Shown here one piece after another: positions 2-17,300 of a stretch of DNA of 64,000 bases (positions are counted from its first letter, which is position 1; each line of letters opens with the position of its first letter). Origin of the DNA: a virus (lineage: Duplodnaviria; Caudoviricetes). The position numbers and the translations under genes are program-made. Location of the stretch: positions 1 to 64,000 of IMG/VR virus record IMGVR_UViG_3300037991_005043; one strand, written 5' to 3'. The notes below the pieces were generated by a model that was not told the DNA's origin, searched no databases, and saw nothing but the letters and a program-made list of their open reading frames with translations.

Positions 2-697
2 GATATTTTGAAAAGAATTGAAGTCCTACCAGAAAATAAAGTAGAGGATATGGCTGAAAAGCAGGGATTAAAGTGGGAATCTTCTAAAGAAAAGGGCTAT
101 CCTGTTTCTAATCTAACAATGGTTGTAGATATAGATGATGAGGATGATTCACTTAAAGGATATACTTCTTTCAAAGATATGGGTAAATTTTACTTTGTAG
201 GAAATAGTTATTCTTATCAAAAGGGTTCATTTGGTAAAGTTCTCGCTCATAGAAATAATAAGGTAGTTCCTAAAAATATACCTAAAATTACTCTACTTAA
301 TCCGATAGAAGGTTCAACTAGAGAGGGTTTAATGAGAATGGTTGCTAGAGGTGGAGGAATAGAAGTAAAGGATTATTCTATGGTAGATGATATAATGTCT
401 GAAAAGGAATATGAAAGACTTATTGCTAATCCTAATATCACTATGGCTAGATATCCTCCACTTAAATTAATGAAGTGGGAAGAAACTCTAAAGGCATCTA
501 AGAAAAAGGCTAGAAGAAAGAAGAAAAAATCTAATGTAAATGCTGCGGGTAACTATACTAAACCTGCATTGAGAAGAAGATTATTCTATAGAATAAAAGC
601 AAGTAATAAAGGTGGTAGAGCAGGTCAATGGTCTGCTAGGAAAGCACAAAGGTTGGCTCTAGCATATGAGAAAGCAGGTGGGGGGTATCGTAATTAA
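2..697 (+). CDS. 5'-truncated basic protein; C-terminal half of the GQWSARKAQ (DUF5872-like) family domain
   Basis: Frame is open from the window edge (D-I-L-K-R-I-E-V). C-terminus GNYTKPALR...GGRAGQWSARKAQRLALAYEKAGGGY. Internal MKWEETLK at 470-493. Confidence 0.75.
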   Translation, partial: DILKRIEVLPENKVEDMAEKQGLKWESSKEKGYPVSNLTMVVDIDDEDDSLKGYTSFKDMGKFYFVGNSYSYQKGSFGKVLAHRNNKVVPKNIPKITLLNPIEGSTREGLMRMVARGGGIEVKDYSMVDDIMSEKEYERLIANPNITMARYPPLKLMKWEETLKASKKKARRKKKKSNVNAAGNYTKPALRRRLFYRIKASNKGGRAGQWSARKAQRLALAYEKAGGGYRN

Positions 698-962
698 TTG
701 GAAAGATATTCTCAAGGCTAAGGCTAAATCACAAAAAGATTTAGAAGAATGGACTGATGAAGAATGGGGTAGTCAAGAACAACATAGAGCCGAAGAAAAA
801 GGTGAGGAAGCACCTTCAAAAACAAAAGGAAGATATATGCCGAAAGAAACATATCAAAAAACTCCTAAAGCAAGATTAGATTATCAAGATGATAAGAAAC
901 GAGAAGGAACTAAAAAAGGAAAACAACATGTTCCAACAGGAAAGAAGTTTAGTCAAAAGTGA
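693..962 (+). CDS. Small basic protein, WxxILK-tagged; second half of DUF5872-like domain; probable ATT start
   Basis: SQKDLEEWTDEEW...GRYMPK...KKREG.KKGKQHVP. The G-rich RBS (677-686) sits 6 nt before ATT-AAT-TGG (x-N-W-K-D-I-L-K). The track start at 666 lacks an RBS. Confidence 0.65.
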   Translation: MNWKDILKAKAKSQKDLEEWTDEEWGSQEQHRAEEKGEEAPSKTKGRYMPKETYQKTPKARLDYQDDKKREGTKKGKQHVPTGKKFSQK

Positions 963-967
963 TTACT

Positions 968-1351
968 ATGGTTTGGGAAGATATTCTAAAAAATGAAAAG
1001 CGTAGAAAGAATATAAGGGAAAAGCGTAGAAAGGCTTTTGCACAAAGGCAAGGCTATCCAAATATATCTGATTGGAGGCAAGCGGCTGTTAAAGAGGCGT
1101 TTCTCCGTAACAAAGAAAAAAATAAGGGTAGATATATGCCTGAACCTCCTACTAGACCTACAATCTCAAAACCAAAAAAAGAACCTAAGCCTAAGAGAGA
1201 GATACCTAAAAGAAATTTAATTCAGAATTATTTTGAGATGTATCAAAATAAGGGGAAGGGAAAACCAACAATGGATGACATTGTAAGAGAAGAAGGAAGA
1301 CCTCTAACTGTAGATGAAATAAAAGAATATAATAAGTTAATGAGAGGCTGA
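968..1351 (+). CDS. Lys/Arg-rich hypothetical protein, WxxILK-tagged
   Basis: MVWEDILK start; EKRRK repeated (15-bp direct repeat at 995-1009 and 1019-1033). Confidence 0.7.
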   Translation: MVWEDILKNEKRRKNIREKRRKAFAQRQGYPNISDWRQAAVKEAFLRNKEKNKGRYMPEPPTRPTISKPKKEPKPKREIPKRNLIQNYFEMYQNKGKGKPTMDDIVREEGRPLTVDEIKEYNKLMRG

Positions 1352-1355
1352 TAAC

Positions 1356-1853
1356 ATGACATGGTATTCTATCCTTAAGGCTGATAAAGCACTTGTGGGT
1401 AGAAGAAAGGCTAAGAATCCTAATTTATTTTTACAAAGAAAAGGAACTAAGCAGAATCTAGGCAGACCTATGAAAGAAGAACCAGAAAAATTATCTTATA
1501 TTGCTATTGAAGTTCCAAAAGAAGAATTTACTAGATACTATAATTTCTTGGCTGAGTTTTATGGTAATCGTGGTTGGGAGCAGTATTCTATGGGTACTGC
1601 TCAACAGGGAATAAGAAATGATGTAGTAGAAAGAGTTCTAAGGGATTTTGAGAGAGGTAAATTAAAGGATTCTAAAAGAAAATATTCTGATGAGTTAGAT
1701 GATGCTGCTAAAAAAGCAATGGAAGTATTAATCAAAAAACTAAAAACAACTGGTGAACTATTACAAGTTGGTTCTCGTACTCATATTAGAGAAGGAAGAG
1801 ATATGGTTAGGTATGCGAAGAAGTTAGAAAGAAGTTATGATATAGGTAGATAA
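1356..1853 (+). CDS. Hypothetical protein, WxxILK-tagged
   Basis: MTWYSILK start; tightly packed in operon. Confidence 0.75.
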   Translation: MTWYSILKADKALVGRRKAKNPNLFLQRKGTKQNLGRPMKEEPEKLSYIAIEVPKEEFTRYYNFLAEFYGNRGWEQYSMGTAQQGIRNDVVERVLRDFERGKLKDSKRKYSDELDDAAKKAMEVLIKKLKTTGELLQVGSRTHIREGRDMVRYAKKLERSYDIGR

Positions 1854-1854
1854 T

Positions 1855-2361
1855 ATGTGGCAAGAAATCCTAAAGAAAGATATGTCCTACTGCGTTTGTA
1901 GTGGACCAAATAAAACTAAGGGTTTTACTTGTAAAGCACATTGTCGCAGTAAAGAAATAAAAAAAGTTAATTCAAAACTACAAGATATTATTCATAAGAA
2001 ATCAAAAGCCCGTAGAAAGGCTGGCTCTAAGGCATATAAGAAAAAGAATCCAAAAAAAGGCACAGGTAAAAAACCAAAGGGTTCAGCAAGGAGATTATAC
2101 ACAGATGAAAACCCAAAAGATACTGTTCCTGTTGAGTTCAGAACTGCTCAAGATGTAAGAGAAACTTTCTCAAGTTCTGCATTTAAGAGAAAACCTCACA
2201 AGAGGCAATCTCAAATAATTAATCTTGTTGAGCAAAGAGCAAGGGTAGCCGCAAGAGAGGCTAAAGACCCCAAAACAAAAAAGAGATTAAAGAGAGCGCA
2301 TTCAGTAGCAGACCAAAGAAAAAAAGCAAGTAAAAGAAAAACAGAGAGGATGAGAGCATGA
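1855..2361 (+). CDS. Basic hypothetical protein (LYTDENPKDTV family seen in marine viruses), WxxILK-tagged
   Basis: MWQEILK start; RRLYTDENPKDTV...EQRARV block recalled from marine phage hypotheticals. Confidence 0.7.
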   Translation: MWQEILKKDMSYCVCSGPNKTKGFTCKAHCRSKEIKKVNSKLQDIIHKKSKARRKAGSKAYKKKNPKKGTGKKPKGSARRLYTDENPKDTVPVEFRTAQDVRETFSSSAFKRKPHKRQSQIINLVEQRARVAAREAKDPKTKKRLKRAHSVADQRKKASKRKTERMRA

Positions 2362-2630
2362 GTTGGGAAAATATAGTTAAAAGAAGTTATGAAGAATCAG
2401 TAAAATTACAAAGAGAGTTAGATAATAAAAAATACAAAGACCTTTCTAAGAAATTTTTAGAAGAAATTAAAGCAGAAGGTGGGGCTTTAGGAAAAAAGCA
2501 TCTAATTGATAAGTTCAATATGAATATCAGTAATGTAGAAATAATTCTAACTAGGATGATTATGGAAGGATTAATATTCCGACATAAACATGGTGATTTA
2601 TATACACACGACCCTGCTAAAAAAAGGTGA
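2358..2630 (+). CDS. Small protein, possible winged-helix DNA binder, WxxIVK-tagged
   Basis: MSWENIVK start; helix-helix-helix then EGLIFRHKHGDLY wing-like pattern; ATGA overlap. Confidence 0.6.
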   Translation: MSWENIVKRSYEESVKLQRELDNKKYKDLSKKFLEEIKAEGGALGKKHLIDKFNMNISNVEIILTRMIMEGLIFRHKHGDLYTHDPAKKR

Positions 2631-2634
2631 TTAA

Positions 2635-3051
2635 ATGGATGACTGGAAAATAATTTTGAAAGAATTATCTTGTCCTAGAGCGACTAAGGATTTGAAATTT
2701 AATACTAAGAATAGGAATATGGCTATCAAAGATGAGGATATTAAATATGGTCCACTTAATTTAGAAGATGATAAGTATTGGGTTGATTTAGCAGACCATT
2801 GGAATACTACTCCCGATGTTGCTAAAAAATCAAAGTGCTCTAACTGTATGGCTTTTGATATTAGTCCTAGAATGAAAGAATGTATGCCTATTGAAGATGT
2901 AAAAGGTGGACTAGGTTATTGTTGGATGCACGATTTCAAATGTCATGAAGATAGAACTTGCTATACATGGGCTAAGGGTGGAGCAATTACATCTGATAAG
3001 AAGTCTAAGAAGAATCAAATGAAGAGAGAAGAAAAATCTAAGGAAGAATAA
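2635..3051 (+). CDS. Cys-rich hypothetical protein, WxxILK-tagged
   Basis: MDDWKIILK start; CP...YGPLN...CSNC..F...GYC..HDFKC...TC..W pattern. Confidence 0.75.
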   Translation: MDDWKIILKELSCPRATKDLKFNTKNRNMAIKDEDIKYGPLNLEDDKYWVDLADHWNTTPDVAKKSKCSNCMAFDISPRMKECMPIEDVKGGLGYCWMHDFKCHEDRTCYTWAKGGAITSDKKSKKNQMKREEKSKEE

Positions 3052-3053
3052 TT

Positions 3054-3569
3054 ATGAATTATTGGCGAGATATACTTAGAAAATACTCTAAGAAACAAAA
3101 GAAAATTATGGCTTTGACTCCTCCCGAAGATGAGTTTAATCCTGAAGATTTTGAAGAACTTAGAGAAGGTGATGTTGAGTTAATGAAAACAGAAATACAC
3201 TACACTATTTCTGAAGATGTAATTATGAAATCATGTTGTGATGACTGTATTCCTCACGACCAATTAATTAAGGCAGAAGTTAAGAGAACTAAGAAAGGAA
3301 AAATTGTATATCGAGGAGAAATATTCCCTGCTTTCAATAAGCCAAAAAGAGCACCTAAAGGTAGCCCTAAGAAATATAGAGTTCTTGCTAGAGTCTATGA
3401 AAAGGGTAAGTCTGTAATCAGAATAGTCAATTTTGGTTTTAGAGGTATGAAAGACTTCCTACAACATAAAGACCCTAAGAGAAGAAGAAACTTCAAGTCA
3501 AGAATGAATTGTAAAGATAAAAAGAATAAACTAACCGCAGGTTGGTGGGCTTGTAACTTCAATTGGTAA
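3054..3569 (+). CDS. Basic protein with DUF5754-like C-terminal domain, WxxIL(R)K-tagged
   Basis: MNYWRDILRK start; KKY.V...VNFG..GM.DF..HKD.KRR.NF..R..C...AGWW.C...W as in phage/NCLDV small basic proteins (family name from memory). Confidence 0.7.
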   Translation: MNYWRDILRKYSKKQKKIMALTPPEDEFNPEDFEELREGDVELMKTEIHYTISEDVIMKSCCDDCIPHDQLIKAEVKRTKKGKIVYRGEIFPAFNKPKRAPKGSPKKYRVLARVYEKGKSVIRIVNFGFRGMKDFLQHKDPKRRRNFKSRMNCKDKKNKLTAGWWACNFNW

Positions 3570-3620: not shown

Positions 3621-5273
3621 TTGGCGGAAGGAAGGAGAAGATTTTCAGTTGGAAATCTCTTTAGAAGAAGCACACCAAAACCTAACGATAGACAAATCTA
3701 TGCTATGGGAATACAGGAGCGTCAAAATAATTACATGATGACCGCCCCTATCATTTACTCAATAGTTCAACAGTCTGTAATTACAAGAACATGTATTACT
3801 CAACTCAAGCAGGAGATATTTAGAAGAGGCTACATTTGGGAGAAAGCCTATGAAGCAAGGTGTAATAATTGTGGAAAAGAACATCAAAGACCTGTATCTG
3901 TTTGCTCTAGATGTGGTTCGGAGGACTTGAAAAAACCTGACCCAAAACAACTACAGTTCGCTGAAAGGTTCTTAGAGCAGTATGTCAATAAGTCCGAGCA
4001 GTTGTTCATAGATGTTCTCAAGGAACTTGAGGATGATTTGAACATCATGGATGATGCTTACATTGTATTAGTTAAAGAATACTTCTTAGATGGAAATGGT
4101 TCTATTCGTATGCATAGAATAAAAGAATTGTATAGGGGCGACCCTGTTTCAATGTTTATCTATGCTGATGAAGATGGAACTAGAGGAACTAGAGGCTTTA
4201 CCTGTATTAATCATAGAAATCATCTAGTCAAAGAACCTCACATGAAATGTGAAGATTGTGGTTCTAATATGTTCCCTGTTCATTATGTAAATAGAGCACA
4301 TGGGGAGGACCAGTATTTTATTGAGGGAGAAGTATTGCACTTTAGTAAATATAATCCTACTAGATTGTATGGTGTTTCGCCTATATTGACTCTTTACAAT
4401 TATATTATGACTTTAATCGCTATGGAGAGTTACATTCAATCATCCTATACTAAGAGTAGAATGCCTAGAGGTTTGCTAACTGTTCAAACTAGAAATCTAG
4501 ATAGCATGAGAAGTTTTTGGAGAGCAACTAAAGAAAAGTTAGAGCAAGACCCACACTTTATTCCTATCATGGGTGTAGAAAGTGAAAGTGGTAAAGGTTC
4601 TGTAGAATGGATTAAGTTTATGGATAGTCTAAAGGAAATGGATTATGTTTCTGTTAAAGATGACTTAAGAGATAGAATATCTGCTTTCTATGGAGTAAGT
4701 AAAGTGTTTATGGCTGATAATACTACAAGTGGCGGATTAAATAATGAGGGTATGCAAATTCTTGTTACTAATAGAGCAGTTGAATCAGCGCAAAAAGTGT
4801 ATAACAACTATGTTTTCCCATTCTTAACAAAACAATTCGGTATAACAGACTGGAACTTAAAACTTCCACCTAGCGAAGAGGAAGATGAAATTGCAGGATT
4901 AAGAAAGAGAGAGATAGAAGTAAATATCGCTGCATCTATAAAGAATCTAGGATTTGAAGTAGATATGGATGAAGATGGTAATTTTACATATGAAAAACCT
5001 GAACCTCAAGAGCCTGAACCCACAACAGAAGAAAAGGGTATGGATATGGATATTGGAATGGAAACTCCTCTAGAAGAACCGATGACTCAAGAGCCTATAC
5101 AAGAAACATCTATGGAGCAAGATATAGAACAAGAACCTACTCCTCAAGAAAATCCTCCCGCCACAAGAAATAAAAGGAGAATGAGCGTAGGACCAGATAA
5201 GAGATTCACAGGATTACCCGAAGATGCAGGAAATCAAAATGTAGATACAAGAAGTGAGAGGAGAATACCATGA
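3621..5273 (+). CDS. Portal protein with two Zn-ribbon-like insertions
   Basis: HK97-type portal motifs (DDLNIMDDAY, EVLHF...LYGVSPI, RDRISAFYGV); CNNC/CSRC and CINH/CEDC; acidic Pro-rich C-tail; TTG start after GGGGG. Confidence 0.9.
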   Translation: MAEGRRRFSVGNLFRRSTPKPNDRQIYAMGIQERQNNYMMTAPIIYSIVQQSVITRTCITQLKQEIFRRGYIWEKAYEARCNNCGKEHQRPVSVCSRCGSEDLKKPDPKQLQFAERFLEQYVNKSEQLFIDVLKELEDDLNIMDDAYIVLVKEYFLDGNGSIRMHRIKELYRGDPVSMFIYADEDGTRGTRGFTCINHRNHLVKEPHMKCEDCGSNMFPVHYVNRAHGEDQYFIEGEVLHFSKYNPTRLYGVSPILTLYNYIMTLIAMESYIQSSYTKSRMPRGLLTVQTRNLDSMRSFWRATKEKLEQDPHFIPIMGVESESGKGSVEWIKFMDSLKEMDYVSVKDDLRDRISAFYGVSKVFMADNTTSGGLNNEGMQILVTNRAVESAQKVYNNYVFPFLTKQFGITDWNLKLPPSEEEDEIAGLRKREIEVNIAASIKNLGFEVDMDEDGNFTYEKPEPQEPEPTTEEKGMDMDIGMETPLEEPMTQEPIQETSMEQDIEQEPTPQENPPATRNKRRMSVGPDKRFTGLPEDAGNQNVDTRSERRIP

Positions 5274-5509: not shown

Positions 5510-8494
5510 ATGCAATCTTGGGATTCTATTCTTAAAAAAGAAGAATTGCGACAAGAAGAACAAGATAAGTTAGAAGTTATCTCCGATGTTTTAACTGAAA
5601 AGTATGATAAGTTAATTTCTTTTGATGAAGAAATTCAAGACTTGAAGGATGCTGAGAGAGAAATTGCTGATAAAATAAAGAGTCAATCGGATAAGAAGTC
5701 TAGTGTATATAGATTACAAACTGAAATTTCTGATTTAACTGCTGACTTAAAAGATGCTAAGGAAACTATTAGAGAATATGATTCTAAGGTAAAAGAAAGT
5801 AAAAATAAATATAATGAAACAAAAGATATTAATCCTTCAAGAGCAAAAACAATTCTTGACGATGAAATGAAAACTATCAATGCAAATAAAAAAGATGCTG
5901 ATAAGATAGTTTTAGAAACCCCAAAAAATATAGAGAAGTTGAAAGAAGAACTTAAGAAAACTGGTGGTGTTGGGAAGAGATTAAATGCAAAAAAGAACAA
6001 ATTACTTGAGCAGATTAAGGAGAAAAAGCAAGAAAGATTGGACTATCTACAAGACAATCCTCAACAAGAAATATTCAGACAGTATAGAAAATTAGGATTA
6101 GCGGGATTGAAAAAAGAAATAAACAGAATTAACACTATTTTACAACGCTCACTTATTCTTGAAGATGACTATGAAGAAGAGAAGGAAATTGAAGAAGAAG
6201 TGGAAGAAATAGAAGAAGTCAATGAATATCATAAAGAATTATTACTTGAACTAACTACTCTTTACAATACAATATCAATTACTCTTTTACAAGAATATGT
6301 AAAAGGAACGCTTATCGCTAAGAAAGATGAAGATACTGGGGGAGTCTATAGAAATTCTGCTGGTAGATTAGAGATTGCAGATTATGAAAGTTTGATTGAT
6401 ATTCCTAAATCAACTCTAGTTGCTATTACAAATGCTCTATCTATTAGAGGAAATAATCAAAATAAACTAACTTCTCTAATTAATCTAAATAAATTCGATA
6501 GGGGATTAATGGATAATTTTGACAATAAGAATAATCTAGTTATTGATATTCCTGCTGGTGAAGCAGAAGAAATCATAGGAGATTTTCCTAAGTTAAAGTT
6601 TGAAGAAGATTCAGACAATGATAAAGTTATCATTCTAGATTTAAATGAATATTTAGAACCGCTAAAAGAAATAGATTCTACCGACATTCCTGTTGATGAT
6701 GACAATGTTCCAGTTCAAGAAATATTAGCGCAATACCTGTATATTGTTTCTGGTGGTAAATTAAATATCAATAAGAAGAGAGAAGATATTGATTATAGAG
6801 ATAATATGAAAGGGCTTTTAGAAAGTTTTACTGCTAGTCAAAAATCAATTACTAATGTAAATCTTAAGAAATTATTAGAAACTGCTTTCAAAGTCGAAAA
6901 GGATTCTACAAGGCTTAGTAATTCATTCAAGCAGGAAACTAGAGAACTACAAGAACTATTAGAATCAGAGAAAAACATTGAATTCTTTCAAGGCGATAAA
7001 TTTAGAAAATACGCACAGGTATTATTAGAAGAACTTAGTGAAGGGCTAAGAGATTACATGAACATAGAAAGTTCTACTAAAATTACTCAAGCGATTAATG
7101 CTTTTTTCAGAGTTGTTAAATTTAACTTTAATGTTGAGAATGAAAAAATATTAGATGAAGTTGATAAATTAAATACTGAATTTATCAAAAACAATAAGCA
7201 ATTAAAAGGTAATTTTAAGGGAGATAGAGATAAAATTGCTAGGCTCGCTAATGAAGTTAGTTCTTATCAAACTAAATTTATTAAAATTTTTAGAGCAGAG
7301 GAATTCAATGAATCAAATAAAATACTTGACAGAATTAAATTAGACCTTAAAGAACTTAAAAATAATAAAAATATGTTTGTATCAAGTGAATTCCCTACAT
7401 TATATGAAAGAATAAAAGAGTGGAGGAGAACCACTTTGTCTGCTATGAAAGAAATAGGTAGCAAGATGAAAAAAGATGGGGAAAATTATATTTACACAAA
7501 AGAGGATGAGGAATATGTTTTAACCCCTGAGATGATTAGCGAGGCAATGAAGAACTTAGGTGCAGTAAAATTCCCTAGTGAACTATTTGATAAGAAACAA
7601 AAAATGAATGCTAAAATACTAGAAACTAGAATAAAAATTAAACAAAAATTTAGACAAGAAATAATGAAAAATGTTGATTTTATTATTAAAGACATAGTTG
7701 ATAGCCTTAAAGAAACTGGTGAATCTAAAGAAGAATCATATTGGGATTTGATAACTAATGAGTTAGATGAAATATTAGTCGCTAGAGTTAGTGGAAAGGC
7801 AGTTCAAAATATTGGTCTTTATGGAACTGAAAGAGAGGGAGATAAGCAAACAGGTGGAATTCTAACTAATCTTCTAAAAGACCTCGTTGATGAAAATAAG
7901 AAGTTTAAGAGAGAACACCTTAACATAACACAAGAAACTAGAACTCAAGAAAAAGATGGTAAAACTATTACTGGTATTTACGATACTAAGAGTGCAGAAG
8001 ATGTGGCTAATGAAATGACAATTAGACCTGAGCAGTTCAAGAAAGGAGTAGAAATGTTTGCTCAAAGAGTAAAACTAATGACAGACTTTTATGCTAACTC
8101 TAGTGAAGTTATGACTACTACTACTTTAATTAGGCAAGAGTTAGAAGAAAGAAAAAATAGAATCTCTAGACAAATCAAACAAATAGAATCAGAAAAGGAT
8201 GATTCTTTAGAAGCAATGAAGGGTAGATTTGAAGAAAAATTAAAACTTTTAGAAAATATAGATGCAGACAAAGTTCTCTCCGATAGAGCATTAAAAGTAG
8301 AAGGAGAAGATGTTGTCAATAACTTTGCTCTTTTAAATCAAATTTTAGATAACGAAAAAGGTAGTTCTCTTTCCAACGCTATGAATAAATTAGATAGGGA
8401 ATTAGGCAAGTTAGAGGAAATCTATAAAAAACTAGGCGATAGTGGAGATTTATCAATTAAAAATATTAAGAATGCGATGCCCGCATTAACATGA
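5510..8494 (+). CDS. Large helical/coiled-coil protein, WxxILK-tagged; candidate internal or ejected virion protein
   Basis: 994 aa; MQSWDSILK; GGTGA RBS; long E/K heptad regions; located in head module. Confidence 0.7.
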   Translation: MQSWDSILKKEELRQEEQDKLEVISDVLTEKYDKLISFDEEIQDLKDAEREIADKIKSQSDKKSSVYRLQTEISDLTADLKDAKETIREYDSKVKESKNKYNETKDINPSRAKTILDDEMKTINANKKDADKIVLETPKNIEKLKEELKKTGGVGKRLNAKKNKLLEQIKEKKQERLDYLQDNPQQEIFRQYRKLGLAGLKKEINRINTILQRSLILEDDYEEEKEIEEEVEEIEEVNEYHKELLLELTTLYNTISITLLQEYVKGTLIAKKDEDTGGVYRNSAGRLEIADYESLIDIPKSTLVAITNALSIRGNNQNKLTSLINLNKFDRGLMDNFDNKNNLVIDIPAGEAEEIIGDFPKLKFEEDSDNDKVIILDLNEYLEPLKEIDSTDIPVDDDNVPVQEILAQYLYIVSGGKLNINKKREDIDYRDNMKGLLESFTASQKSITNVNLKKLLETAFKVEKDSTRLSNSFKQETRELQELLESEKNIEFFQGDKFRKYAQVLLEELSEGLRDYMNIESSTKITQAINAFFRVVKFNFNVENEKILDEVDKLNTEFIKNNKQLKGNFKGDRDKIARLANEVSSYQTKFIKIFRAEEFNESNKILDRIKLDLKELKNNKNMFVSSEFPTLYERIKEWRRTTLSAMKEIGSKMKKDGENYIYTKEDEEYVLTPEMISEAMKNLGAVKFPSELFDKKQKMNAKILETRIKIKQKFRQEIMKNVDFIIKDIVDSLKETGESKEESYWDLITNELDEILVARVSGKAVQNIGLYGTEREGDKQTGGILTNLLKDLVDENKKFKREHLNITQETRTQEKDGKTITGIYDTKSAEDVANEMTIRPEQFKKGVEMFAQRVKLMTDFYANSSEVMTTTTLIRQELEERKNRISRQIKQIESEKDDSLEAMKGRFEEKLKLLENIDADKVLSDRALKVEGEDVVNNFALLNQILDNEKGSSLSNAMNKLDRELGKLEEIYKKLGDSGDLSIKNIKNAMPALT

Positions 8495-8504: not shown

Positions 8505-8900
8505 ATGACATGGGATTATTATAACACAGGAGAAGAAATTACCTTCAAGAAAGAAGAAAAGAAAGAAGAGGTAGATATGGAAGATATACTATCTTCTTTA
8601 TCCGATAAAGAAAGAAAGAGAGTTAAAAAAACTATTCAGTCTGCTGAACCTACTGAATATTTTGGGCAGGATTTCACTAAGTTAGGAGAACTATTAGATA
8701 TGATGAAAGACTTAAAATTAATCAAATCTGATAAAAAACTCACAAAGAAAGTTAAGTCTATGGATGAGAGAAACATTGATATTGTTGCTACCGCTACGAA
8801 ACTGCGTAAGGAGTATGAGTTGTTGTATAGACAGATTGAAAAAATGCTCTATCCTAGAAGAAAAGTAGATGGTGAGGAAGATTACTATGAGCGAGATTAA
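8505..8900 (+). CDS. Hypothetical head-module protein
   Basis: GAGG RBS; 131 aa; contains LIKS/VKS motifs. Confidence 0.75.
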   Translation: MTWDYYNTGEEITFKKEEKKEEVDMEDILSSLSDKERKRVKKTIQSAEPTEYFGQDFTKLGELLDMMKDLKLIKSDKKLTKKVKSMDERNIDIVATATKLRKEYELLYRQIEKMLYPRRKVDGEEDYYERD

Positions 8901-9126
8901 TGAAGATTTATTGAGAATAGTTAAGGCTCTATCTGCTAAAGTAGAGGAGTTGGAAAAGGCAGTTTATCATAAAGATAATTTGCTAATGAAATCTGGATTT
9001 GTTGTAGCAAATTCACCTACTCCATCTATGAAAGTTAATCCAGCAGAAAGTGGAGGCGTTCCTGATGTTTCATCTATGGAATGGTCGGATATTCATAAGA
9101 TGGTAAAAACAATGGGAGGAGAATGA
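8887..9126 (+). CDS. Small scaffold-like protein sharing its C-terminal motif with the protease-scaffold
   Basis: N-terminal coiled coil; C-terminal DVSSMEWSDIHKMV nearly identical to DISSMSWSDIHKMV of 11946-13151. Confidence 0.75.
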   Translation: MSEINEDLLRIVKALSAKVEELEKAVYHKDNLLMKSGFVVANSPTPSMKVNPAESGGVPDVSSMEWSDIHKMVKTMGGE

Positions 9127-11945: not shown

Positions 11946-13151
11946 ATGACGACTATACTCAAATCATCCGATGGGAATTTCAATATTCTCAAGAGTAGAG
12001 ATGACTTGATGATAGGTGGATATGCTAGTATCGAAATTGTTGATAAGCAAAATGATTTAATCACCTTGAAGGCTTTAGAAGAAGCAGTTACTAAATTTAT
12101 GGATAAAGACCGCTTTAGAAATGTTATGACAAATCATTCTAATGTTCAAGTTGGAGAAGTTGTAAAATCATACAGGGATAAAACTGGTAAATTGTGGAAA
12201 ACAGGAGTAGATGATGTAGGATTCTTTGTTGTTATCAAACTTAGAGATGATATAGAAAAAGCAAAGGAAATTAATAGAGGCATTCGCAAGGGCAACCTTC
12301 GTTCATTTAGTATTGGTGGGCAGGCTTTACAGAAAGTAAAGAAGCGACATCAAGACTTAGGGGAGTATAATGAAATAAGTAAGTTAGAACTCCATGAAGT
12401 TACTATATGTGAAAAAGGTATAAATCCCGAAGCGAAGTTCGATATCTTAAAGCAAGATAAAGGAGAGAATAACATGAGCGACATTGAAAAGGCTATGGAA
12501 GAACTGAACGCACTGATGGATGAGGTAAATACTCTTATCCAAAAGGAAGAAACCGAGAAGATGCCCGAAGCAGAAAAGGGTTCATATATGGATAAAGAGG
12601 ACATGGAAGATACAGAAATGGCTGATACAGAAATGGCTGAGGACAAAGAAGATATGGAATATGCAGATGAAGAAGCAAAAGCATATGTACCAACTGTTGA
12701 TGGTGCTGGTGTAGAAATTGGAGAACCTGCTAACAGAGTAGTTATTAGTGGTGGAAAGCCAACTTCTAACGATATGCCTGTTGTAAAAGCATTCAACAAT
12801 GTAGAGATTTCATCTCTAGATTTAGATGCTTCCACAATTGAAAAAGCATATGAGCAATTTAGAACAGAGCAACTAGAAGCATTGGCTCTAGATAATCTAC
12901 AAAAGACTTTTGAGGCGAGATTTGCAGATGAAATCTCCACAAGAGAAACACAAATTGCAAAGCAAAACTATGATGCACAATCAGAAATTGCAGACTTGAA
13001 GAAGTCATTCAAGGAACTTGCAGATTCTCTAACTGCTAGAGATGATGCAATTATCAAGGCTCAAGAAGAAGCAAGAGCAGAAATTCCTAGTATTGAAGAT
13101 ATCAGTTCTATGTCATGGTCTGATATTCACAAAATGGTAGGGGGGTACTAA
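11946..13151 (+). CDS. HK97-type prohead protease fused to acidic scaffold
   Basis: IGGYAS..VD.QND, NH...VG, LRSFSIGG, L.EVTICE.GINPEA motifs; immediately upstream of MCP. Confidence 0.92.
   Translation: MTTILKSSDGNFNILKSRDDLMIGGYASIEIVDKQNDLITLKALEEAVTKFMDKDRFRNVMTNHSNVQVGEVVKSYRDKTGKLWKTGVDDVGFFVVIKLRDDIEKAKEINRGIRKGNLRSFSIGGQALQKVKKRHQDLGEYNEISKLELHEVTICEKGINPEAKFDILKQDKGENNMSDIEKAMEELNALMDEVNTLIQKEETEKMPEAEKGSYMDKEDMEDTEMADTEMAEDKEDMEYADEEAKAYVPTVDGAGVEIGEPANRVVISGGKPTSNDMPVVKAFNNVEISSLDLDASTIEKAYEQFRTEQLEALALDNLQKTFEARFADEISTRETQIAKQNYDAQSEIADLKKSFKELADSLTARDDAIIKAQEEARAEIPSIEDISSMSWSDIHKMVGGY
12474..13151 (+). CDS. Nested in-frame scaffold protein (internal start)
   Basis: AGGAGA RBS at 12461-12466, 7 nt before an in-frame ATG (MSDIEKAMEE) right after the protease domain; analogous to lambda C/Nu3. 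Confidence 0.6.
   Translation: MSDIEKAMEELNALMDEVNTLIQKEETEKMPEAEKGSYMDKEDMEDTEMADTEMAEDKEDMEYADEEAKAYVPTVDGAGVEIGEPANRVVISGGKPTSNDMPVVKAFNNVEISSLDLDASTIEKAYEQFRTEQLEALALDNLQKTFEARFADEISTRETQIAKQNYDAQSEIADLKKSFKELADSLTARDDAIIKAQEEARAEIPSIEDISSMSWSDIHKMVGGY
12609..12638 (+). repeat. Perfect 15-bp tandem duplication (DTEMA x2)
   Basis: GATACAGAAATGGCT twice. Confidence 0.9.
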
Positions 13152-13153
13152 AC

Positions 13154-14494
13154 ATGTCAGGATATATTAACACAATTGCAGACCTAGAAGCACAAACATA
13201 CGGAATTAATACAGTTGGTGGAAACGCACTTTTGAAACAATCGGGTGCTATCGCTGGACTTCACACAGGACACGATACATCTCTAGGTGTAGGTAGTGGA
13301 ACTACCGCAGCATCAGATTTGGGTTCACTATACAATGTTGTTTATGGGCAGAAAGTTTGGTCTATGCTAAACAGAGAATGTAATGCTCTATCTATGATTT
13401 CAAAAAGACCATACACATCTAGCGGTTGGAGAGTTCTAAAATCTAGACCTGCTGGTGGTAGCGGTAATACTTTTGGAGTTGCTACAAGTGGAACACTAAA
13501 TGCTGCATTGTTAGGTGCAGATGCTCCTAGAGCAGATGCTATTGGTGGAGTACCAGAAAATGCAGGGCTTTCTACTGCGGCTGATGGTCTAGGACCAATT
13601 GCTCCAACATATGCTCAACTTTTCCAATCACCTAAGATAGTTGCACATCAATTTGATTTCTCTGAATTGGCTATGGAAATGGCTCAAATTGACGATGGTA
13701 TCGGTGATATTAGAGCACAAATGAGAGAAGATATGGGTAAGCACCACTCAGAAACACAGAACAAAATGCTAGTAATGCCTCTAGAGCATTATGGTGAAAA
13801 TTCTGCTATGCCTCATATTGAAAGAAACTATACTTCTCTATTGAAGATAGTTTCTAGCAGAGCAGAATTGTTGGCTATTGATGGTGGAGTTATTGCTACA
13901 GATACAACAAGTGCATCTAACAATTTGGGTAAGATATTTGGTAGTGAGAGATTCAGTGCTGCTTCTTTCCTAGATGCAGAAGTTGATTTTGGTAGTGGAT
14001 ATGCAGCAGGTGATGTTAGAAGTCTAACTCTAACTATCCTAAATAATCTAATTAGAAACCTAAGAACTGCTGGTGGTTCACCAAAGGTTATCCTAACTGG
14101 ATATGATACACTACAAGCAATTTCTGATTTGCTACAATCTCAAGAAAGGTTCATGGATAGAAAAGAAATAGTTCCTACTGTAAATGGTGTAAGAGGAGTT
14201 AAAGGTCAAGAAGTTGGATTTAGAGTTTCTACTTACTACGACATCCCTATGATTCCTGTTAAGGATATGCCTTCTACAACAAGTGCTTCAACAAGCATTT
14301 CTGATATGCTATTCTTAGATACAGACCATATGTGGCTATCTGTTATGAAGCCAACTCAATACTTTGAAGATGGTATTAGCAACGGAAACCCATTCGGTGT
14401 TGGAACACTAGGCAACAGGGCTATGTATAGAACTATTGGTGAAATCGGTTGTTCCTTCTTTAAGGGTCAAGGCAAGATTACAAACCTACAATGA
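13154..14494 (+). CDS. Major capsid protein (HK97 fold)
   Basis: 446 aa after protease; YGQKVWSMLN.E.NAL....K.P...SGWR and LFLDTD...KPTQYFE, typical of halo-/magrovirus MCPs. Confidence 0.9.
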   Translation: MSGYINTIADLEAQTYGINTVGGNALLKQSGAIAGLHTGHDTSLGVGSGTTAASDLGSLYNVVYGQKVWSMLNRECNALSMISKRPYTSSGWRVLKSRPAGGSGNTFGVATSGTLNAALLGADAPRADAIGGVPENAGLSTAADGLGPIAPTYAQLFQSPKIVAHQFDFSELAMEMAQIDDGIGDIRAQMREDMGKHHSETQNKMLVMPLEHYGENSAMPHIERNYTSLLKIVSSRAELLAIDGGVIATDTTSASNNLGKIFGSERFSAASFLDAEVDFGSGYAAGDVRSLTLTILNNLIRNLRTAGGSPKVILTGYDTLQAISDLLQSQERFMDRKEIVPTVNGVRGVKGQEVGFRVSTYYDIPMIPVKDMPSTTSASTSISDMLFLDTDHMWLSVMKPTQYFEDGISNGNPFGVGTLGNRAMYRTIGEIGCSFFKGQGKITNLQ

Positions 14495-14504
14495 GGTGCT
14501 CTAG

Positions 14505-15056
14505 ATGACTTACTCAGTAACTCAACTAGCAGACCACAAAGGTTTCTCTTTGCCTAAAGTTTCTGGTGATGAATATGTTGTTAATGTAGAATTAGATATT
14601 ACATCTTTCGCTTCTACGGCAATTTCAGTAACAGGAGATTTTTTAGCACTACCTAATCAATTTACTGCTGATGCAGGAGAAGATATTAGTAGCCTAGAAG
14701 TCGGACAAGCAGTAACACTATCAAATTGTGTAGATTCAGGAAATAACGCAACAGTAACTATTGCTGCTATTAGCGGTCAAGTTCTTACTCTTTCAAATGT
14801 TGCGGCAGATGAGAATAGTGATACAATTACAATCACTAACACGCATGAAAAGATAACTGCTTCTTCTCTAGGACTATCTACTATTACCGCAGTAGAAGTT
14901 ATAGGTCAAGAAAGTCTTGCTAACGGTTTTCAAGTTATTAAATATCTATCAGATACTACCTTTGAACTAAAAGCATTTACTCTTTCAAATGGTGCAGTTT
15001 TGGCTACAACAACTGATGCTGGAACTGTGAGGCTAAGAGTTTATGGAAACCTTTGA
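14505..15056 (+). CDS. Putative capsid decoration/minor head protein with inserted beta module
   Basis: Follows MCP; beta-rich and Thr/Ser-rich; ends VRLRVYGNL. Confidence 0.6.
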   Translation: MTYSVTQLADHKGFSLPKVSGDEYVVNVELDITSFASTAISVTGDFLALPNQFTADAGEDISSLEVGQAVTLSNCVDSGNNATVTIAAISGQVLTLSNVAADENSDTITITNTHEKITASSLGLSTITAVEVIGQESLANGFQVIKYLSDTTFELKAFTLSNGAVLATTTDAGTVRLRVYGNL

Positions 15057-15415
15057 AGGTGATTCATTTGGTAACAGTAAAACTTACAGGAGATTCTAAA
15101 ATAGGTAGGTTAGTAGTTCCTAATTCTGAGGGAGCACCCACAGAAATTACTAGGAATGATTCTACTAGCGTTTCTTTGAAATGGGCTTTAGTAAGAGGTA
15201 AAGATAGAAACTTATTATTTACCTTTGAAGAATCCGATAGAGAAGAACTATTATCTATTGAAGGGAATATGCAAGCAACTGTTCTAAGGGAATTTGGAGT
15301 AGAAACATTAGAAATGCTAGAATCTAGAATTCTGCCTGCTAAAAAAGTAGCATCTAAAGGCAGACCAAAGGGTTCTACAACTAAGAAAACTACCTCTAAA
15401 ACCAAAAAGGATTAA
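15053..15415 (+). CDS. Hypothetical protein with basic AT-hook-like tail
   Basis: C-terminal SKGRPKGSTTKKT; true start probably the TTG a few codons in, after GGTGA. Confidence 0.65.
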   Translation: MKVIHLVTVKLTGDSKIGRLVVPNSEGAPTEITRNDSTSVSLKWALVRGKDRNLLFTFEESDREELLSIEGNMQATVLREFGVETLEMLESRILPAKKVASKGRPKGSTTKKTTSKTKKD

Positions 15416-15455
15416 GTAGAAAGCATTTTCTAAGCGAATATAACGAGGAATCAGC

Positions 15456-15734
15456 ATGGGTACAGTATGTAGAAGTAGTGGCGTTTTAACGAGTAGCGGA
15501 ATAGTGTCTAACTCTAGAGCACTACTAACTTCTATCCATGCTACAGAGGTGGGTGGTTCGGCAGCGACTATAAAAATCTTTGACGGAACTTCAAATTCTG
15601 GTAAAGAAGTCGCCCGAATCACCCTCACCGCAAATCAAACAATAGAGTTTGATATGCATAATGTTATCTGCACAGATGGAATATTCTTTGAAGAAGTTTC
15701 TGGTGCAGTAGCGGTTTCCGTTGAATTCGCTTGA
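15456..15734 (+). CDS. Small beta-rich putative structural protein
   Basis: 92 aa; GAGG RBS; jelly-roll-like alternating pattern. Confidence 0.6.
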   Translation: MGTVCRSSGVLTSSGIVSNSRALLTSIHATEVGGSAATIKIFDGTSNSGKEVARITLTANQTIEFDMHNVICTDGIFFEEVSGAVAVSVEFA

Positions 15735-15743
15735 GGTAATATA

Positions 15744-16160
15744 ATGGCTGCACTTGATAATGCGACTAGACTAGTAATGACTATACTTTTTGTGGGAACA
15801 GTTAGCGGTGCTAATGTTTTCTTTTACGCTAAGTATGGTTCTAATTTTCCATACACACCTATGGCTCATGCCGTATTATTTGGATTAATGACAGTAGGTA
15901 GTATCATGGTAGTAAAAGCCATGTTCGATTTATTCTTAAATGATAAAATTGAATTGTGGCTATTAGATAGAAAGATAGATGCTTTTTGGAGTAGAAAGAA
16001 AAGAGATTCGGAACAATATTCTAAAATGCAAGAAAGTGCAAAAACTATCGGGATGCCCTTTAATCAATCTCTTCCTATTCAAAATAACTCTAAAACACCC
16101 GTACCCATTAATTCTGGTGAGGCAGAAATTAGTAATGAATTCTTAATCGGACTACAGTAG
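15744..16160 (+). CDS. Membrane protein, two predicted TM helices
   Basis: LVMTILFVGTVSGANVFFY and AVLFGLMTVGSIMVVKAMF hydrophobic segments; GAGGT RBS. Confidence 0.8.
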   Translation: MAALDNATRLVMTILFVGTVSGANVFFYAKYGSNFPYTPMAHAVLFGLMTVGSIMVVKAMFDLFLNDKIELWLLDRKIDAFWSRKKRDSEQYSKMQESAKTIGMPFNQSLPIQNNSKTPVPINSGEAEISNEFLIGLQ

Positions 16161-16169
16161 GTGGTTTAG

Positions 16170-16385
16170 ATGTTAAGCGACATTATGGGTATGTCGGATA
16201 GCGACTATATGTATAATCAAAGTAGGGCGCATTCAGCAGACCTACTATTTCTTAAGATGAGAGCATGGTTTTGGGGAACCACTTCTACACTTATAGCCCT
16301 ACTTTTAGGTAACATTGGTGGAGTCTTTGATATTAATATCATGGGCTGGATAATAGACACTATTACGGGGCTATGGGGTCATTGA
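16170..16385 (+). CDS. Small membrane protein
   Basis: AWFWGTTSTLIALLLGNIGGVF...IMGWII hydrophobic stretch; GGTGG RBS. Confidence 0.75.
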   Translation: MLSDIMGMSDSDYMYNQSRAHSADLLFLKMRAWFWGTTSTLIALLLGNIGGVFDINIMGWIIDTITGLWGH

Positions 16386-16386
16386 T

Positions 16387-17046
16387 ATGTCATTAATGAC
16401 TGGTTTTGCTATTCTTGTAGGTGAAGCAGTATTAGGAATATACAAAAAACTACACGCAATTAATTTTGGAATATATGGGGCTACTATGGTAGGTAAAACT
16501 ACTTTAAATCATCAACTTAGAACTAGGGGAGAAGTTCATCAGATTAATGAAAGAACTGTAGGATTACATAGACCATCTAGAAAAAATGTAAAAATAGATG
16601 GAGAAACTAATACTATTAGATGCTCGGATGTTGGAGGGGAAGCGATTTACTGGAAAGAATGGGCTAAAGATATGCAACTTAGAAAAGTTAAGTATGTCAT
16701 ATTTATGATAGACCATAGACATTTAGATAATACTTCTAATTTAGACCATCAGTTAGCATGGAAGTTTCTAGTAGATACTATTGTATCTGATACTTTACCT
16801 ACTGGTAGAAAAAAGAAAGACAAGGATTATCCTATGGCGGTAGGTATTTGGGCTAACAAATATGATATTTGGGGAGAAAAATATCCAACCGATGACATAG
16901 AAAAACATGAAATATTTGAACCTTTTAAGTATGGAATGAGGAAGTTAAACGAGAAGGGAATACCTTGCTTCAAATATATTGTATCGGCAAAATCTGACCC
17001 CGAAATGGTATATCGTGGAGTAATGACTATGATTAAGGATTACTGA
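16387..17046 (+). CDS. Arf/Sar-like small GTPase (Ras superfamily) with N-terminal hydrophobic helix
   Basis: G1 GATMVGKT, G2 RTVG, G3 DVGGE, switch-II W, VIFMID, G4 ANKYD, G5 SAK. Confidence 0.88.
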   Translation: MSLMTGFAILVGEAVLGIYKKLHAINFGIYGATMVGKTTLNHQLRTRGEVHQINERTVGLHRPSRKNVKIDGETNTIRCSDVGGEAIYWKEWAKDMQLRKVKYVIFMIDHRHLDNTSNLDHQLAWKFLVDTIVSDTLPTGRKKKDKDYPMAVGIWANKYDIWGEKYPTDDIEKHEIFEPFKYGMRKLNEKGIPCFKYIVSAKSDPEMVYRGVMTMIKDY

Positions 17047-17051
17047 TTATT

Positions 17052-17300
17052 ATGTGGGAAAATGTTCTAAAAGGTAAAGTTCCTAAAAAACTTAGGGCAG
17101 AAATAGAAAATAAATTACCTCAAATAGAAATAGTTTCATTTCAGCAGACTAAGGGAGGACATAAGTTATTAGAATTATTTAATACTGAAACCAATGAACG
17201 GGGAAAAATTTCAGTTTCTTCTAGTCCTAAATCTAAAGGAAAATATCACTTAGTTATTCAAGACATAAAAAAGAAATTTAAAATCGGGAGAGAAATATAA
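17052..17300 (+). CDS. HicA-like (dsRBD-fold) small protein carrying a WxxVLK tag
   Basis: MWENVLK start; TKGGH...ISVSSSP......IQDI pattern of phage HicA-like proteins. Confidence 0.55.
   Translation: MWENVLKGKVPKKLRAEIENKLPQIEIVSFQQTKGGHKLLELFNTETNERGKISVSSSPKSKGKYHLVIQDIKKKFKIGREI

What the first reader, a model, noticed from the sequence alone, without database searches (positions are those of the whole stretch)
2..17075. Candidate capsid-targeting tag: about ten unrelated proteins begin with W-x-x-I-L-K, mirrored by the scaffold C-terminus WSDIHK
Seen directly: NWKDILK (696), MVWEDILK (968), MTWYSILK (1356), MWQEILK (1855), MSWENIVK (2358), MDDWKIILK (2635), MNYWRDILRK (3054), MQSWDSILK (5510), MWENVLK (17052), xDILK at the window edge, and an internal MKWEETLK (470). 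The bodies behind the tag are unrelated (DUF5872-like, DUF5754-like, Cys-rich, wHTH-like, HicA-like, a 994-aa coiled coil). None of the genes on the replication arm carries it. The protease-scaffold ends in SSMSWSDIHKMV, the same W-x-x-I-x-K spacing. Established: T4 loads internal proteins through an N-terminal capsid-targeting sequence cleaved by the prohead protease, and scaffold C-termini bind coat protein in P22 and herpesviruses. Inference: this virus has a modular peptide address that mimics the scaffold's capsid-binding helix. It would load any tagged cargo into the procapsid, with cleavage after the Lys. That would be a virion cargo system and possibly an engineering tag.
Basis: partly seen in the sequence, partly recalled or inferred. 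Interest (0 to 1): 0.92.

Follow-up and report, generated by a model that had tools for sequence, protein, structure and literature searches.

The report
Shared leader peptide on magrovirus proteins
Sixteen otherwise unrelated genes on the capsid-building arm of this ocean archaeal virus (a magrovirus) start with the same eight-residue peptide, which resembles the virus's scaffold tail and its likely head-protease cutting sites. It is probably a removable label that loads a fast-changing set of small proteins into the capsid, but neither packaging nor cutting has been shown.

Summary
The window is bases 1-64000 of an 88,348-bp virus record. Sixteen ORFs begin M-x(0-3)-W-x-x-[IV]-[LIV]-[KR]. 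All lie on the + (morphogenetic) arm: 16 of 52 genes there, 0 of about 66 on the replication arm. Codons vary synonymously, so selection acts on the peptide.

Relatives show the same pattern. Two magrovirus lineages carry 7-16 canonical tags per record, all on one strand. These sit on 144 mostly small, basic, soluble and fast-turning-over protein families.

A profile built from relatives' tags ranks the two scaffold tails (MSWSDIHK, MEWSDIHK) as the best non-tag 8-mers in the whole proteome.

New here:
- [FW]-x(1-2)-[IL]-L-K also marks conserved sites flanking the S78 protease domain (K169 invariant, K16 in at least 90%), and L-L-K with invariant K28 marks the capsid protein N-terminus.
- A third lineage strings shuffled modules into one polyprotein-like gene, separated by EPM-x-x-A-W-S-E-L-L-K.
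- The type S78 enzyme, HK97 gp4, cuts after a Lys.

Best reading (about 0.5): a leader like the phage T4 capsid targeting sequence (CTS) that is both a procapsid address and a protease site. No packaging, binding or cleavage is shown.

This scan found the same tag at least eight times before on other magrovirus genomes. I found no published description.

The parts
2..697 (+). ORF1, cut by the window edge (true start at genome 88201, MSWEDILK). It has two modules. The second is preceded by an internal tag MKWEETLK at 470-493.
   Evidence: In relatives the second module is a stand-alone 69-aa tagged gene.
678..962 (+). Tagged ORF (..INWKDILK, W at 699). Start uncertain: ATG 666, GTG 678 or ATT 693. 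Overlaps the ORF1 stop codon.
   Evidence: Orthologues begin MSW.
968..1351 (+). Tagged ORF MVWEDILK, 127 aa, pI 10.2
1356..1853 (+). Tagged ORF MTWYSILK, 165 aa, DUF6943
1855..2361 (+). Tagged ORF MWQEILK, 168 aa, Cys motif, pI 10.7
2358..2630 (+). Tagged ORF MSWENIVK, 90 aa
2635..3051 (+). Tagged ORF MDDWKIILK, 138 aa, Cys-rich
3054..3569 (+). Tagged ORF MNYWRDILRK, 171 aa, DUF5754
3621..5273 (+). Portal protein (context)
   Evidence: Pfam Phage_portal
5510..8494 (+). Tagged ORF MQSWDSILK, 994 aa, no family hit, no detectable homologue in relatives
8505..8900 (+). 131-aa ORF with a degenerate tag (MTWDYY). Orthologues in other lineages carry full tags (MSWQSILK, MDWKDTLK, MTWEYILK).
8887..9126 (+). 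Small scaffold-like protein. It shares only a 21-residue C-terminal tail with the protease-scaffold (MEWSDIHK at 9076-9099).
   Evidence: The same small protein with this tail occurs in L083, L086 and L089.
11946..13151 (+). S78 prohead protease fused to a scaffold. FNILK ends at K16 (11979-11993), FDILK ends at K169 (12438-12452), and the tail MSWSDIHK is at 13110-13133.
   Evidence: Pfam; alignment A1; AlphaFold2; PSSM
13154..14494 (+). Major capsid protein. It has a conserved L-L-K28 (13229-13237) after a variable linker.
   Evidence: Pfam SU10_MCP
17052..17300 (+). Tagged ORF MWENVLK, 82 aa, pI 10.0. It is the only tagged gene far downstream of the head genes.

Best explanation
W-x-x-[IV]-L-K, usually as the N-terminal M-S-W-x-[DE]-I-L-K, is a short leader with two roles.

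First role (inferred): the M-S-W-x-[DE]-I half copies the conserved C-terminal helix of the virus's two scaffold proteins. By analogy with scaffold and protease tails in other tailed viruses, it brings the protein into the assembling procapsid.

Second role (inferred): the [IL]-L-K end is a site for the S78 prohead protease. That enzyme is itself carried in by its scaffold fusion. It cuts after the Lys and frees the cargo.

The cargo is a large, fast-changing set of mostly small, basic, soluble proteins that would travel with the DNA into the next host cell. A sister lineage delivers the same kind of modules as one polyprotein-like gene, with the motif as separator.

Shown by computation: the motif, its confinement to one arm, peptide-level selection, its similarity to the tails, and the conserved Lys sites.

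Inferred only: binding, packaging, cleavage and injection.
For: 1. Position and statistics. There are 16 tags on 52 + arm genes and 0 on about 66 - arm genes. All tagged genes are contiguous with terminase, portal, protease and capsid genes, with almost no intergenic gaps.

2. Synonymous codon variation shows peptide-level selection.

3. The tag is conserved in two lineages. Whole records carry 7-16 canonical tags on one strand, and the reversed-pattern control gives 0.

4. A PSSM (position-specific scoring matrix, here a profile of relatives' tags) was run over all 27,539 8-mers of the proteome. The two scaffold tails score highest among non-tag 8-mers, and the protease-scaffold junction EAKFDILK falls in the top 0.1%.

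5. Conserved Lys sites. F-D-I-L-K169 is invariant in 57 protease-scaffolds down to 31% identity. It sits at the end of the last strand of the domain, before a low-confidence linker. F-N-I-L-K16 lies in the disordered N-terminus and is at least 90% conserved. Capsid protein L-L-K28 is invariant across three lineages, after a variable linker.

6. HK97 gp5 reads AKTFNK|SLGSDAD at residues 103/104. The position of the cut is from my own knowledge of mature gp5; PMC9024508 says only that a 104-residue N-terminal polypeptide is removed by gp4.

7. Lineage 3 has a polyprotein-like gene with 1-3 copies of EPM-x-x-A-W-S-E-L-L-K, or EPM-x-I-A-F-Q-L-L-K, between shuffled modules. Its capsid protein carries S-E-L-L-K.

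8. Cargo properties. The 595 tagged ORFs fall into 144 families, 88 of them singletons. Sixty percent are basic and 3 of 144 have a membrane segment. In this genome the median pI is 9.5 for tagged proteins against 5.4 for untagged ones.

9. Precedent. In T4 a 10-residue CTS is shared by diverse basic internal proteins and removed by the prohead protease (PMC9026906, PMC3012670, PMC7411985).
Against: - There are no virion proteomics, binding data or cleavage data.
- 'Late' timing is assumed from gene order. Many tagged genes sit at the very start of the arm, next to the divergent intergenic region, which could be early.
- Several cargo bodies look like Zn-ribbon or other small nucleic-acid-binding proteins, which could equally be regulators.
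- Tag and tail do not co-vary in their last positions. The tag keeps L-K while tails read H-K, H-N, N-A or H-Q.
- [ILV]-L-K is a common tripeptide in this Lys-rich proteome. F-x-I-L is also part of the last strand of stand-alone S78 proteases, so some of the conservation is structural.
- AlphaFold2 gave no usable capsid protein model.
- One protein carries the motif two residues from its C-terminus, where cutting would achieve nothing.
Confidence: 0.5

Rival explanations
1. The motif is only a processing site. It marks where a protease (the S78 enzyme or another one) releases modules or trims precursors. It plays no part in targeting, and the proteins need not be packaged.
For: The motif works internally as a separator in the lineage-3 polyprotein-like gene and in ORF1. 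There are conserved Lys sites in the protease and the capsid protein. The Lys of the tag is near-invariant, 255 K to 6 R.
Against: This does not explain why the upstream half (M-S-W-x-[DE]-I) is conserved and matches the scaffold tails. Removing eight residues from a free-standing small protein has no obvious purpose unless the peptide did something first. Prohead proteases are generally active only inside the procapsid (established for T4 and HK97; my knowledge).
Confidence: 0.17
2. The tag is a docking peptide for a different shared partner. Candidates are the virus's own ubiquitin-like conjugation enzymes (with the invariant Lys as the acceptor), its chaperonin, or a host factor. The tagged proteins would then be intracellular effectors or regulators.
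For: The Lys is 98% conserved, more than charge alone would require. The E1/ThiF gene is present in tag-bearing records G001 and G002 and absent from G008, G010 and G011. Many bodies look like small Zn-ribbon or basic proteins. Some tags fit a hydrophobic-K-x-[DE] pattern, with D/E at that place in 26%.
Against: Lineage-3 records G008, G010 and G011 carry the motif, in W or F form, inside their polyprotein gene but have no E1. The E1 contrast is one phylogenetic split, not independent events. The tag genes sit among head genes on the opposite arm from the Ubl genes. This reading gives no explanation for the similarity to the scaffold tail.
Confidence: 0.13
3. The conserved gene start acts mainly at the nucleic-acid level. 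It would be a homology patch for cassette exchange, or a translation-initiation context. The peptide itself would be incidental.
For: In lineage 3, upstream and downstream modules are reshuffled exactly at the motif (L219 against L220, L204 against L241). The tagged repertoire turns over quickly.
Against: Third codon positions and Leu/Ile/Lys codon choices vary freely while the residues stay fixed. W is invariant. The same residues recur at C-termini of the scaffolds. Recombination at the patch is better seen as a side effect of peptide conservation.
Confidence: 0.05

Closest known systems
Capsid targeting sequence (CTS) of phage T4 internal proteins IPI-IPIII and Alt
   Same: Both are short N-terminal peptides (about 10 aa) shared by otherwise unrelated, mostly basic and rapidly diversifying proteins. 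In T4 the N-terminal part targets and the last residues direct removal by the prohead protease (PMC9026906, PMC3012670, PMC7411985).
   Different: The T4 protease is gp21, a different family with an L/I-x-E site, and its CTS binds the scaffolding core. Here the protease is S78, the putative P1 residue is Lys, and the tag resembles the scaffold's own tail. The scale also differs: 16 genes per genome and at least 144 families here, against a handful in T4. The host is an archaeon. Nothing has been tested experimentally.
C-terminal targeting tails of prohead proteases and scaffolds (HK97 gp4, SPN3US gp245, P22 scaffold)
   Same: A short terminal segment carries the protease or scaffold into the procapsid. 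SPN3US is covered in PMC7411985. HK97 is covered by Duda et al. 2013, cited in PMC9024508 and not read here. Here the tail M-[SD]-W-x-[DE]-[IV]-[HN] is conserved on protease-scaffolds down to about 31% identity, and W391 is invariant.
   Different: In those systems the tail serves the assembly proteins only. Here a look-alike peptide is placed at the N-terminus of many accessory proteins.
Phage P1 DarB N-terminal capsid targeting signal
   Same: An N-terminal signal (the first 30 residues) is sufficient to load a heterologous protein into the capsid (PMC9024508).
   Different: It is a signal on a single protein, with no shared consensus across many cargo proteins and no known link to a protease site.
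Propeptide-bearing ejection and inner-body proteins of giant phages (SPN3US, phiKZ)
   Same: Many head-internal proteins share a prohead-protease cleavage motif and lose N-terminal propeptides (PMC7411985, PMC5694885).
   Different: Those propeptides are long (over 100 aa), and only the 3-residue cleavage motif is shared.
Encapsulin cargo-loading peptides
   Same: Short terminal peptides address unrelated cargo to the interior of an HK97-fold shell (my knowledge; not checked here).
   Different: They are usually C-terminal, are not cleaved, and work in a cellular nanocompartment without DNA.

Membership tests
T4-type capsid targeting sequence system | Short N-terminal peptide shared by unrelated proteins | tested here: met
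   There are 16 ORFs in this genome and 144 families in relatives, with unrelated bodies.
T4-type capsid targeting sequence system | Tagged proteins are present inside virions | not testable with these tools
   No proteomic data are available. There is only synteny with head genes.
T4-type capsid targeting sequence system | The peptide is removed by the prohead protease at a consensus site | tested here: inconclusive
   The tag ends in [IL]-L-K. The same ending is conserved at K16 and K169 of the protease and at K28 of the capsid protein. The HK97 site reads ...NK|S with Lys at P1 (cut position from my own knowledge). No cleavage has been observed.
T4-type capsid targeting sequence system | The peptide binds a scaffold or core component | not testable with these tools
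   No complex prediction was available. The evidence is only similarity to the scaffold tails.
Homology to the T4 system itself (gp21 protease, gp22 core, IP genes) | The protease belongs to the T4 gp21 family | tested here: not met
   The protease matches Pfam Peptidase_S78 (HK97 type), not the T4 family. The resemblance is therefore analogy, not membership.
S78 (HK97-type) prohead protease fused to a scaffold | Pfam S78 domain with conserved Ser/His, encoded upstream of the capsid gene | tested here: met
   PF04586 matches at E = 9e-10. S122 is invariant and H150 is conserved in at least 90% of sequences. The gene lies directly before the capsid gene.

The most novel reading that the evidence does not exclude
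Magroviruses run a genome-wide peptide 'zip code'. One hexapeptide, [WF]-x(1-2)-[IL]-L-K, is at once the scaffold-like address and the S78 protease cut site. It lets any gene or polyprotein module that acquires it become capsid cargo injected into Poseidoniales cells. This would have produced hundreds of interchangeable effector families, far beyond anything known for bacterial phages. It would also be a minimal 8-residue loading tag for HK97-fold shells.
Probability: 0.35. Interest if true: 0.85.

Novelty: new variant of a known kind. Interest (0 to 1): 0.66.

Why it matters
Magroviruses are among the most abundant viruses of the surface ocean. Their hosts are uncultured, and most of their genes have no known function. 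If the leader is a capsid address, about one gene in seven gains a provisional role as protein delivered with the DNA. That set could then be listed from sequence alone in any metagenome.

It would also be the first cargo-loading code described for an archaeal tailed virus. It works on a much larger scale than the T4 CTS and has a polyprotein variant. The tag is very short, so it may be usable for loading HK97-fold capsids.

The conserved Lys sites also give a concrete, testable specificity for an S78 prohead protease.

Tried and rejected
- Nucleotide-level explanation (repeat, promoter, downstream box): rejected, because codons vary synonymously.
- Signal peptide or membrane anchor: rejected. 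The tag has no hydrophobic core, and 3 of 144 families have a membrane segment.
- Co-variation between the tag and the scaffold tail across lineages: looked for and not found. The tag keeps I-L-K while tails vary after W-x-[DE]-[IV].
- Phylogenetic profiling for a partner gene. E1/ThiF tracks N-terminal tag presence, but lineage 3 keeps the motif without E1, and the contrast is a single split.
- The 903-aa protein matches tag-bearing relatives only over its last ~100 residues and is not detected in lineage-3 records. The 564-aa protein is present in all five records. The 421-aa protein has no homologue even in close relatives. None of these was informative.
- AlphaFold2 of the capsid protein: mean pLDDT 51, unusable.
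- AlphaFold2 of the protease-scaffold: gave domain limits only, and the output could not show whether the tail docks on the domain.
- PDB sequence searches with the capsid protein and the protease: no hits.
- Pfam and PHROGs on cargo proteins: only DUFs and one PAP2-like hit.
- HCTV-1, the closest cultured relative found: no tag in the 13 genes examined around its head module, from the gene before the terminase to shortly past the capsid gene.
- Literature: no mention of the motif in the magrovirus papers searched. Duda et al. 2013 is not held.
- Not attempted: a complex prediction of tag with capsid protein (only single natural chains can be folded), and a scan of host genomes (too many chance hits, and virus contigs are mis-binned into host genomes).


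Full report
**What the window is.** The window is bases 1-64000 of an 88,348-bp virus record. The record's ends overlap by 137 nt with one mismatch, so the assembly is circular or terminally redundant.

Pfam identifies:
- a T4-type large terminase at genome 85068-86507;
- a portal at 3621-5273;
- an ATP-dependent DNA ligase at 9391-11913;
- an S78 (HK97-type) prohead protease fused to a long helical and acidic scaffold region at 11946-13151;
- an SU10-type major capsid protein at 13154-14494.

Genes from 76.2 kb, through the record ends, to 38.4 kb are on the + strand and packed almost without gaps. Genes from 38.7 to 75.8 kb are on the - strand and encode replication functions. The closest named relatives of the capsid protein are haloarchaeal tailed viruses. 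Thousands of metagenomic homologues and the gene content fit a magrovirus (PMC5434244).

The ORF cut by the window edge begins at genome 88201 as MSWEDILK. Six further tagged ORFs lie at 76563-79833, one of them 840 aa long.

In total, 16 of 52 + arm genes begin M-x(0-3)-W-x-x-[IV]-[LIV]-[KR]. None of about 66 - arm genes does (Fisher p = 4e-7).

Three related copies add to the picture:
- MSWENEIK is the probable true start of the first gene of the arm.
- MTWDYY at 8505 is a decayed tag. Its orthologues elsewhere read MSWQSILK, MDWKDTLK or MTWEYILK.
- WREILKGL is the C-terminus of a 421-aa protein.

Ile, Leu and Lys codons differ from gene to gene, so the conservation is in the peptide and not in the DNA.

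**Relatives.** Eighty loci with portals 74-79% identical (lineage 1) hold 304 matches within the first nine residues. The per-residue rate in a tag-free lineage would predict about 1.8. The consensus is M-[STN]-W-[KEQ]-[DEN]-[IV]-[LI]-K, with K 255 times and R 6 times.

A sister lineage (lineage 2, portal about 62% identical) has the same tag. Whole IMG/VR records of both lineages carry 7-16 canonical copies, always on one strand, and the reversed-pattern control gives none.

Most of those hits lie in loci that carry 2-19 one-strand tags.

Within 10 kb of the portal in these loci there are 595 tagged ORFs, which fall into 144 families, 88 of them singletons. The median length is about 112 aa. 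Sixty percent are basic, and only three families have a membrane-like segment. In the present genome, tagged proteins have a median pI of 9.5 against 5.4 for untagged proteins on the same arm.

Function searches returned only DUF5754, DUF6943, DUF6321, a PAP2-like domain and weak Zn-ribbon hits. The second module of ORF1, which follows the internal MKWEETLK, is a stand-alone 69-aa tagged gene in relatives. ORF1 is therefore a fusion of two tagged units.

**Likeness to the scaffold tail.** The protease-scaffold ends ...SSMSWSDIHKMVGGY. A separate 79-85-aa helical protein (8887-9126) shares only this 21-residue tail (E = 2e-7). The tail M-[SD]-W-x-[DE]-[IV]-[HN]-x-[LM] recurs on protease-scaffolds down to about 31% identity, and its W is invariant.

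I built a position-specific scoring matrix (PSSM) from relatives' tags and scored all 27,539 8-mers of this proteome. After the true tags, the best hits are:
- MSWSDIHK, 14.4 bits, which falls inside the range of real tags;
- MEWSDIHK, 10.4 bits;
- the C-terminal KQWREILK, 9.3 bits.

The next unrelated peptide scores 5.8 bits. So the 'mirror' is statistically real.

It is not a copy, however. Tags keep L-K. Tails have H or N at that position, and the tail's K is not conserved between lineages. I saw no co-variation between tags and tails.

**Evidence for a Lys-specific processing site.** In an alignment of 57 protease-scaffolds:
- K169 in A-x-F-D-I-L-K|Q-D-K is invariant;
- K16 in F-N-I-L-K|S is at least 90% conserved.

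AlphaFold2 (mean pLDDT 69) places residues 1-17 as disordered and the protease domain at 22-169, with F-D-I-L-K as the end of its last strand. A low-confidence linker follows at 171-178, and the tail forms a short helix at 391-400. The two F-x-I-L-K sites therefore bracket the protease domain.

In the capsid protein, a conserved N-terminal helix is followed by a variable Gly-rich linker and then L-L-K28. K28 is invariant in 25 sequences from three lineages at 41-89% identity.

The type S78 enzyme, HK97 gp4, removes the N-terminal domain of gp5. The record reads AKTFNK|SLGSDAD at residues 103/104. The site itself is from my own knowledge; PMC9024508 says only that a 104-residue N-terminal polypeptide is removed by gp4.

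None of this shows cleavage here. F-x-I-L also belongs to the fold of stand-alone S78 proteases, so part of the signal is structural.

**A polyprotein-like version in a third lineage.** Lineage 3 has a protease 39% identical, and its records are 95-115 kb and at least 90% complete. It has no N-terminal tags.

Instead, one gene of 385-748 aa, located 6-8 kb upstream of the portal, holds one to three internal copies of [SG]-E-P-M-x-x-A-W-S-E-L-L-K. In G010 and G011 the copies read E-P-M-x-I-A-F-Q-L-L-K.

Modules on either side of the motif are reshuffled between genomes. L219 and L220 share the downstream module but not the upstream one. A phage Zn-finger domain lies upstream of the motif in one genome and downstream of it in another. 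The conservation is again at the peptide level, and the Met is once replaced by Ile, so these are not hidden start codons.

The capsid protein of this lineage reads S-E-L-L-K at the conserved site, matching its own W-S-E-L-L-K separator.

This arrangement is what one would expect if the motif delimits units that are released by proteolysis. It also shows that the motif does not need a free N-terminus.

**Most likely mechanism.** I read the leader as working like the capsid targeting sequence (CTS) of phage T4.
- The tail-like half brings the protein into the procapsid.
- The [IL]-L-K end is cut by the encapsidated S78 protease.
- The released cargo, mostly small basic proteins, stays with the DNA.

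In T4, a 10-residue CTS is shared by diverse basic internal proteins. Its N-terminal part targets and its last residues direct removal by the prohead protease. The cargo set differs between related phages (PMC9026906, PMC3012670, PMC7411985). P1 DarB and the SPN3US protease provide further precedents for terminal targeting peptides (PMC9024508, PMC7411985).

The system here is an analogue, not a member of the T4 family. The protease family, the cut site and the likely binding partner all differ.

I put this reading at about 0.5.

**Rivals.**
- The motif is a processing site with no targeting role (0.17).
- The tag docks on another hub, such as the virus's ubiquitin-like conjugation enzymes with the invariant Lys as acceptor (0.13). 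E1 is present in tag-bearing G001 and G002 and absent from lineage 3. However, lineage-3 genomes keep the motif without E1, and the contrast is a single phylogenetic split.
- The motif is a DNA-level or translation-level signal (0.05), which the synonymous variation contradicts.

The conserved coding patch may, as a side effect, promote cassette exchange.

**Weak points.**
- 'Late' expression is assumed from gene order.
- Many tagged genes sit at the very start of the arm.
- Several bodies could be regulators.
- There is no structural or proteomic evidence.
- The capsid protein model failed.
- The closest cultured relative examined, HCTV-1, has no tag in the genes examined around its head module, so its virion data do not help.

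**Novelty.** I found no description of this motif in the magrovirus and archaeal tailed-virus papers I searched, nor any paper linking archaeal viruses with capsid targeting.

Earlier notes of this scan report the same tag on at least eight other magrovirus genomes, and on the other window of this genome, with the same tentative reading.

- the proteome-wide PSSM ranking;
- the invariant K169, K16 and K28 sites;
- the lineage-3 polyprotein with W and F variants;
- the absence of N-terminal tags in complete lineage-3 genomes;
- the E1 co-occurrence check.

Noticed in passing
window 9391-11913: An 840-aa ATP-dependent DNA ligase (Pfam DNA_ligase_A_M, E = 4e-25) sits between the scaffold-like genes and the prohead protease. 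The same placement is seen in lineages 1 and 2 (L083, L084, L088, L089). In lineage 3 (L087) a 1849-aa protein with no Pfam hit lies in that place.
   Followed up: partly
L189:43-2289, L219:1110-3008, L182:216-2084 (lineage-3 loci); G010:C1:41801-43621: A polyprotein-like gene whose modules are separated by EPM-x-x-A-W-S-E-L-L-K, or by EPM-x-I-A-F-Q-L-L-K. Modules are shuffled between genomes, and some carry a phage Zn-finger domain (PF24623).
   Followed up: yes
genome 76784-78049 (L002:2784-4046): A 421-aa basic protein with no homologue in five related genomes ends in ...KKQWREILKGL. This is a C-terminal copy of the tag. The next ORF is in the same frame, 3 nt after the stop codon.
   Followed up: partly
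window 666-716: The tagged ORF reading ..INWKDILK has no ATG next to the W. Possible starts are ATG 666, GTG 678 or ATT 693. The stop codon of ORF1 (695-697) overlaps ATT-AAT, which suggests termination-reinitiation.
   Followed up: no
L053:8673-9248: A tagged 191-aa protein (MNWFSILK...) matches the PAP2 phosphatase superfamily (E = 1.5e-12). It is the only enzyme-like hit among the tagged proteins searched against Pfam or PHROGs; most of the 144 families were not searched.
   Followed up: no
window 61715-62284 (- strand) and relatives G001, G002: The ThiF/E1-like gene of the virus's ubiquitin-like module is conserved in lineages 1 and 2 (50-58% identity). It was not detected in three near-complete lineage-3 genomes.
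   Followed up: partly
P0164, P0165 and other hits: S78 protease domains occur inside proteins of more than 1000 aa. One of them (P0165) ends with the same kind of tail (KMSWSEVEALAAK).
   Followed up: no
L266 (HCTV-1 record 64830-76948): In the haloarchaeal relative HCTV-1, the stretch between the portal and capsid genes holds very large proteins (1046, 675, 1210 and 665 aa), one annotated with a zeta toxin domain. It has no W-x-x-I-L-K tags.
   Followed up: no
window 16387-17046: A 219-aa small GTPase-like protein (weak Arf/Roc/MMR_HSR1 hits, all below the curated cut-offs) lies directly upstream of the isolated tagged gene at 17052. A gene in the same position in lineage-2 locus L084 has a weak Ras hit.
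   Followed up: no
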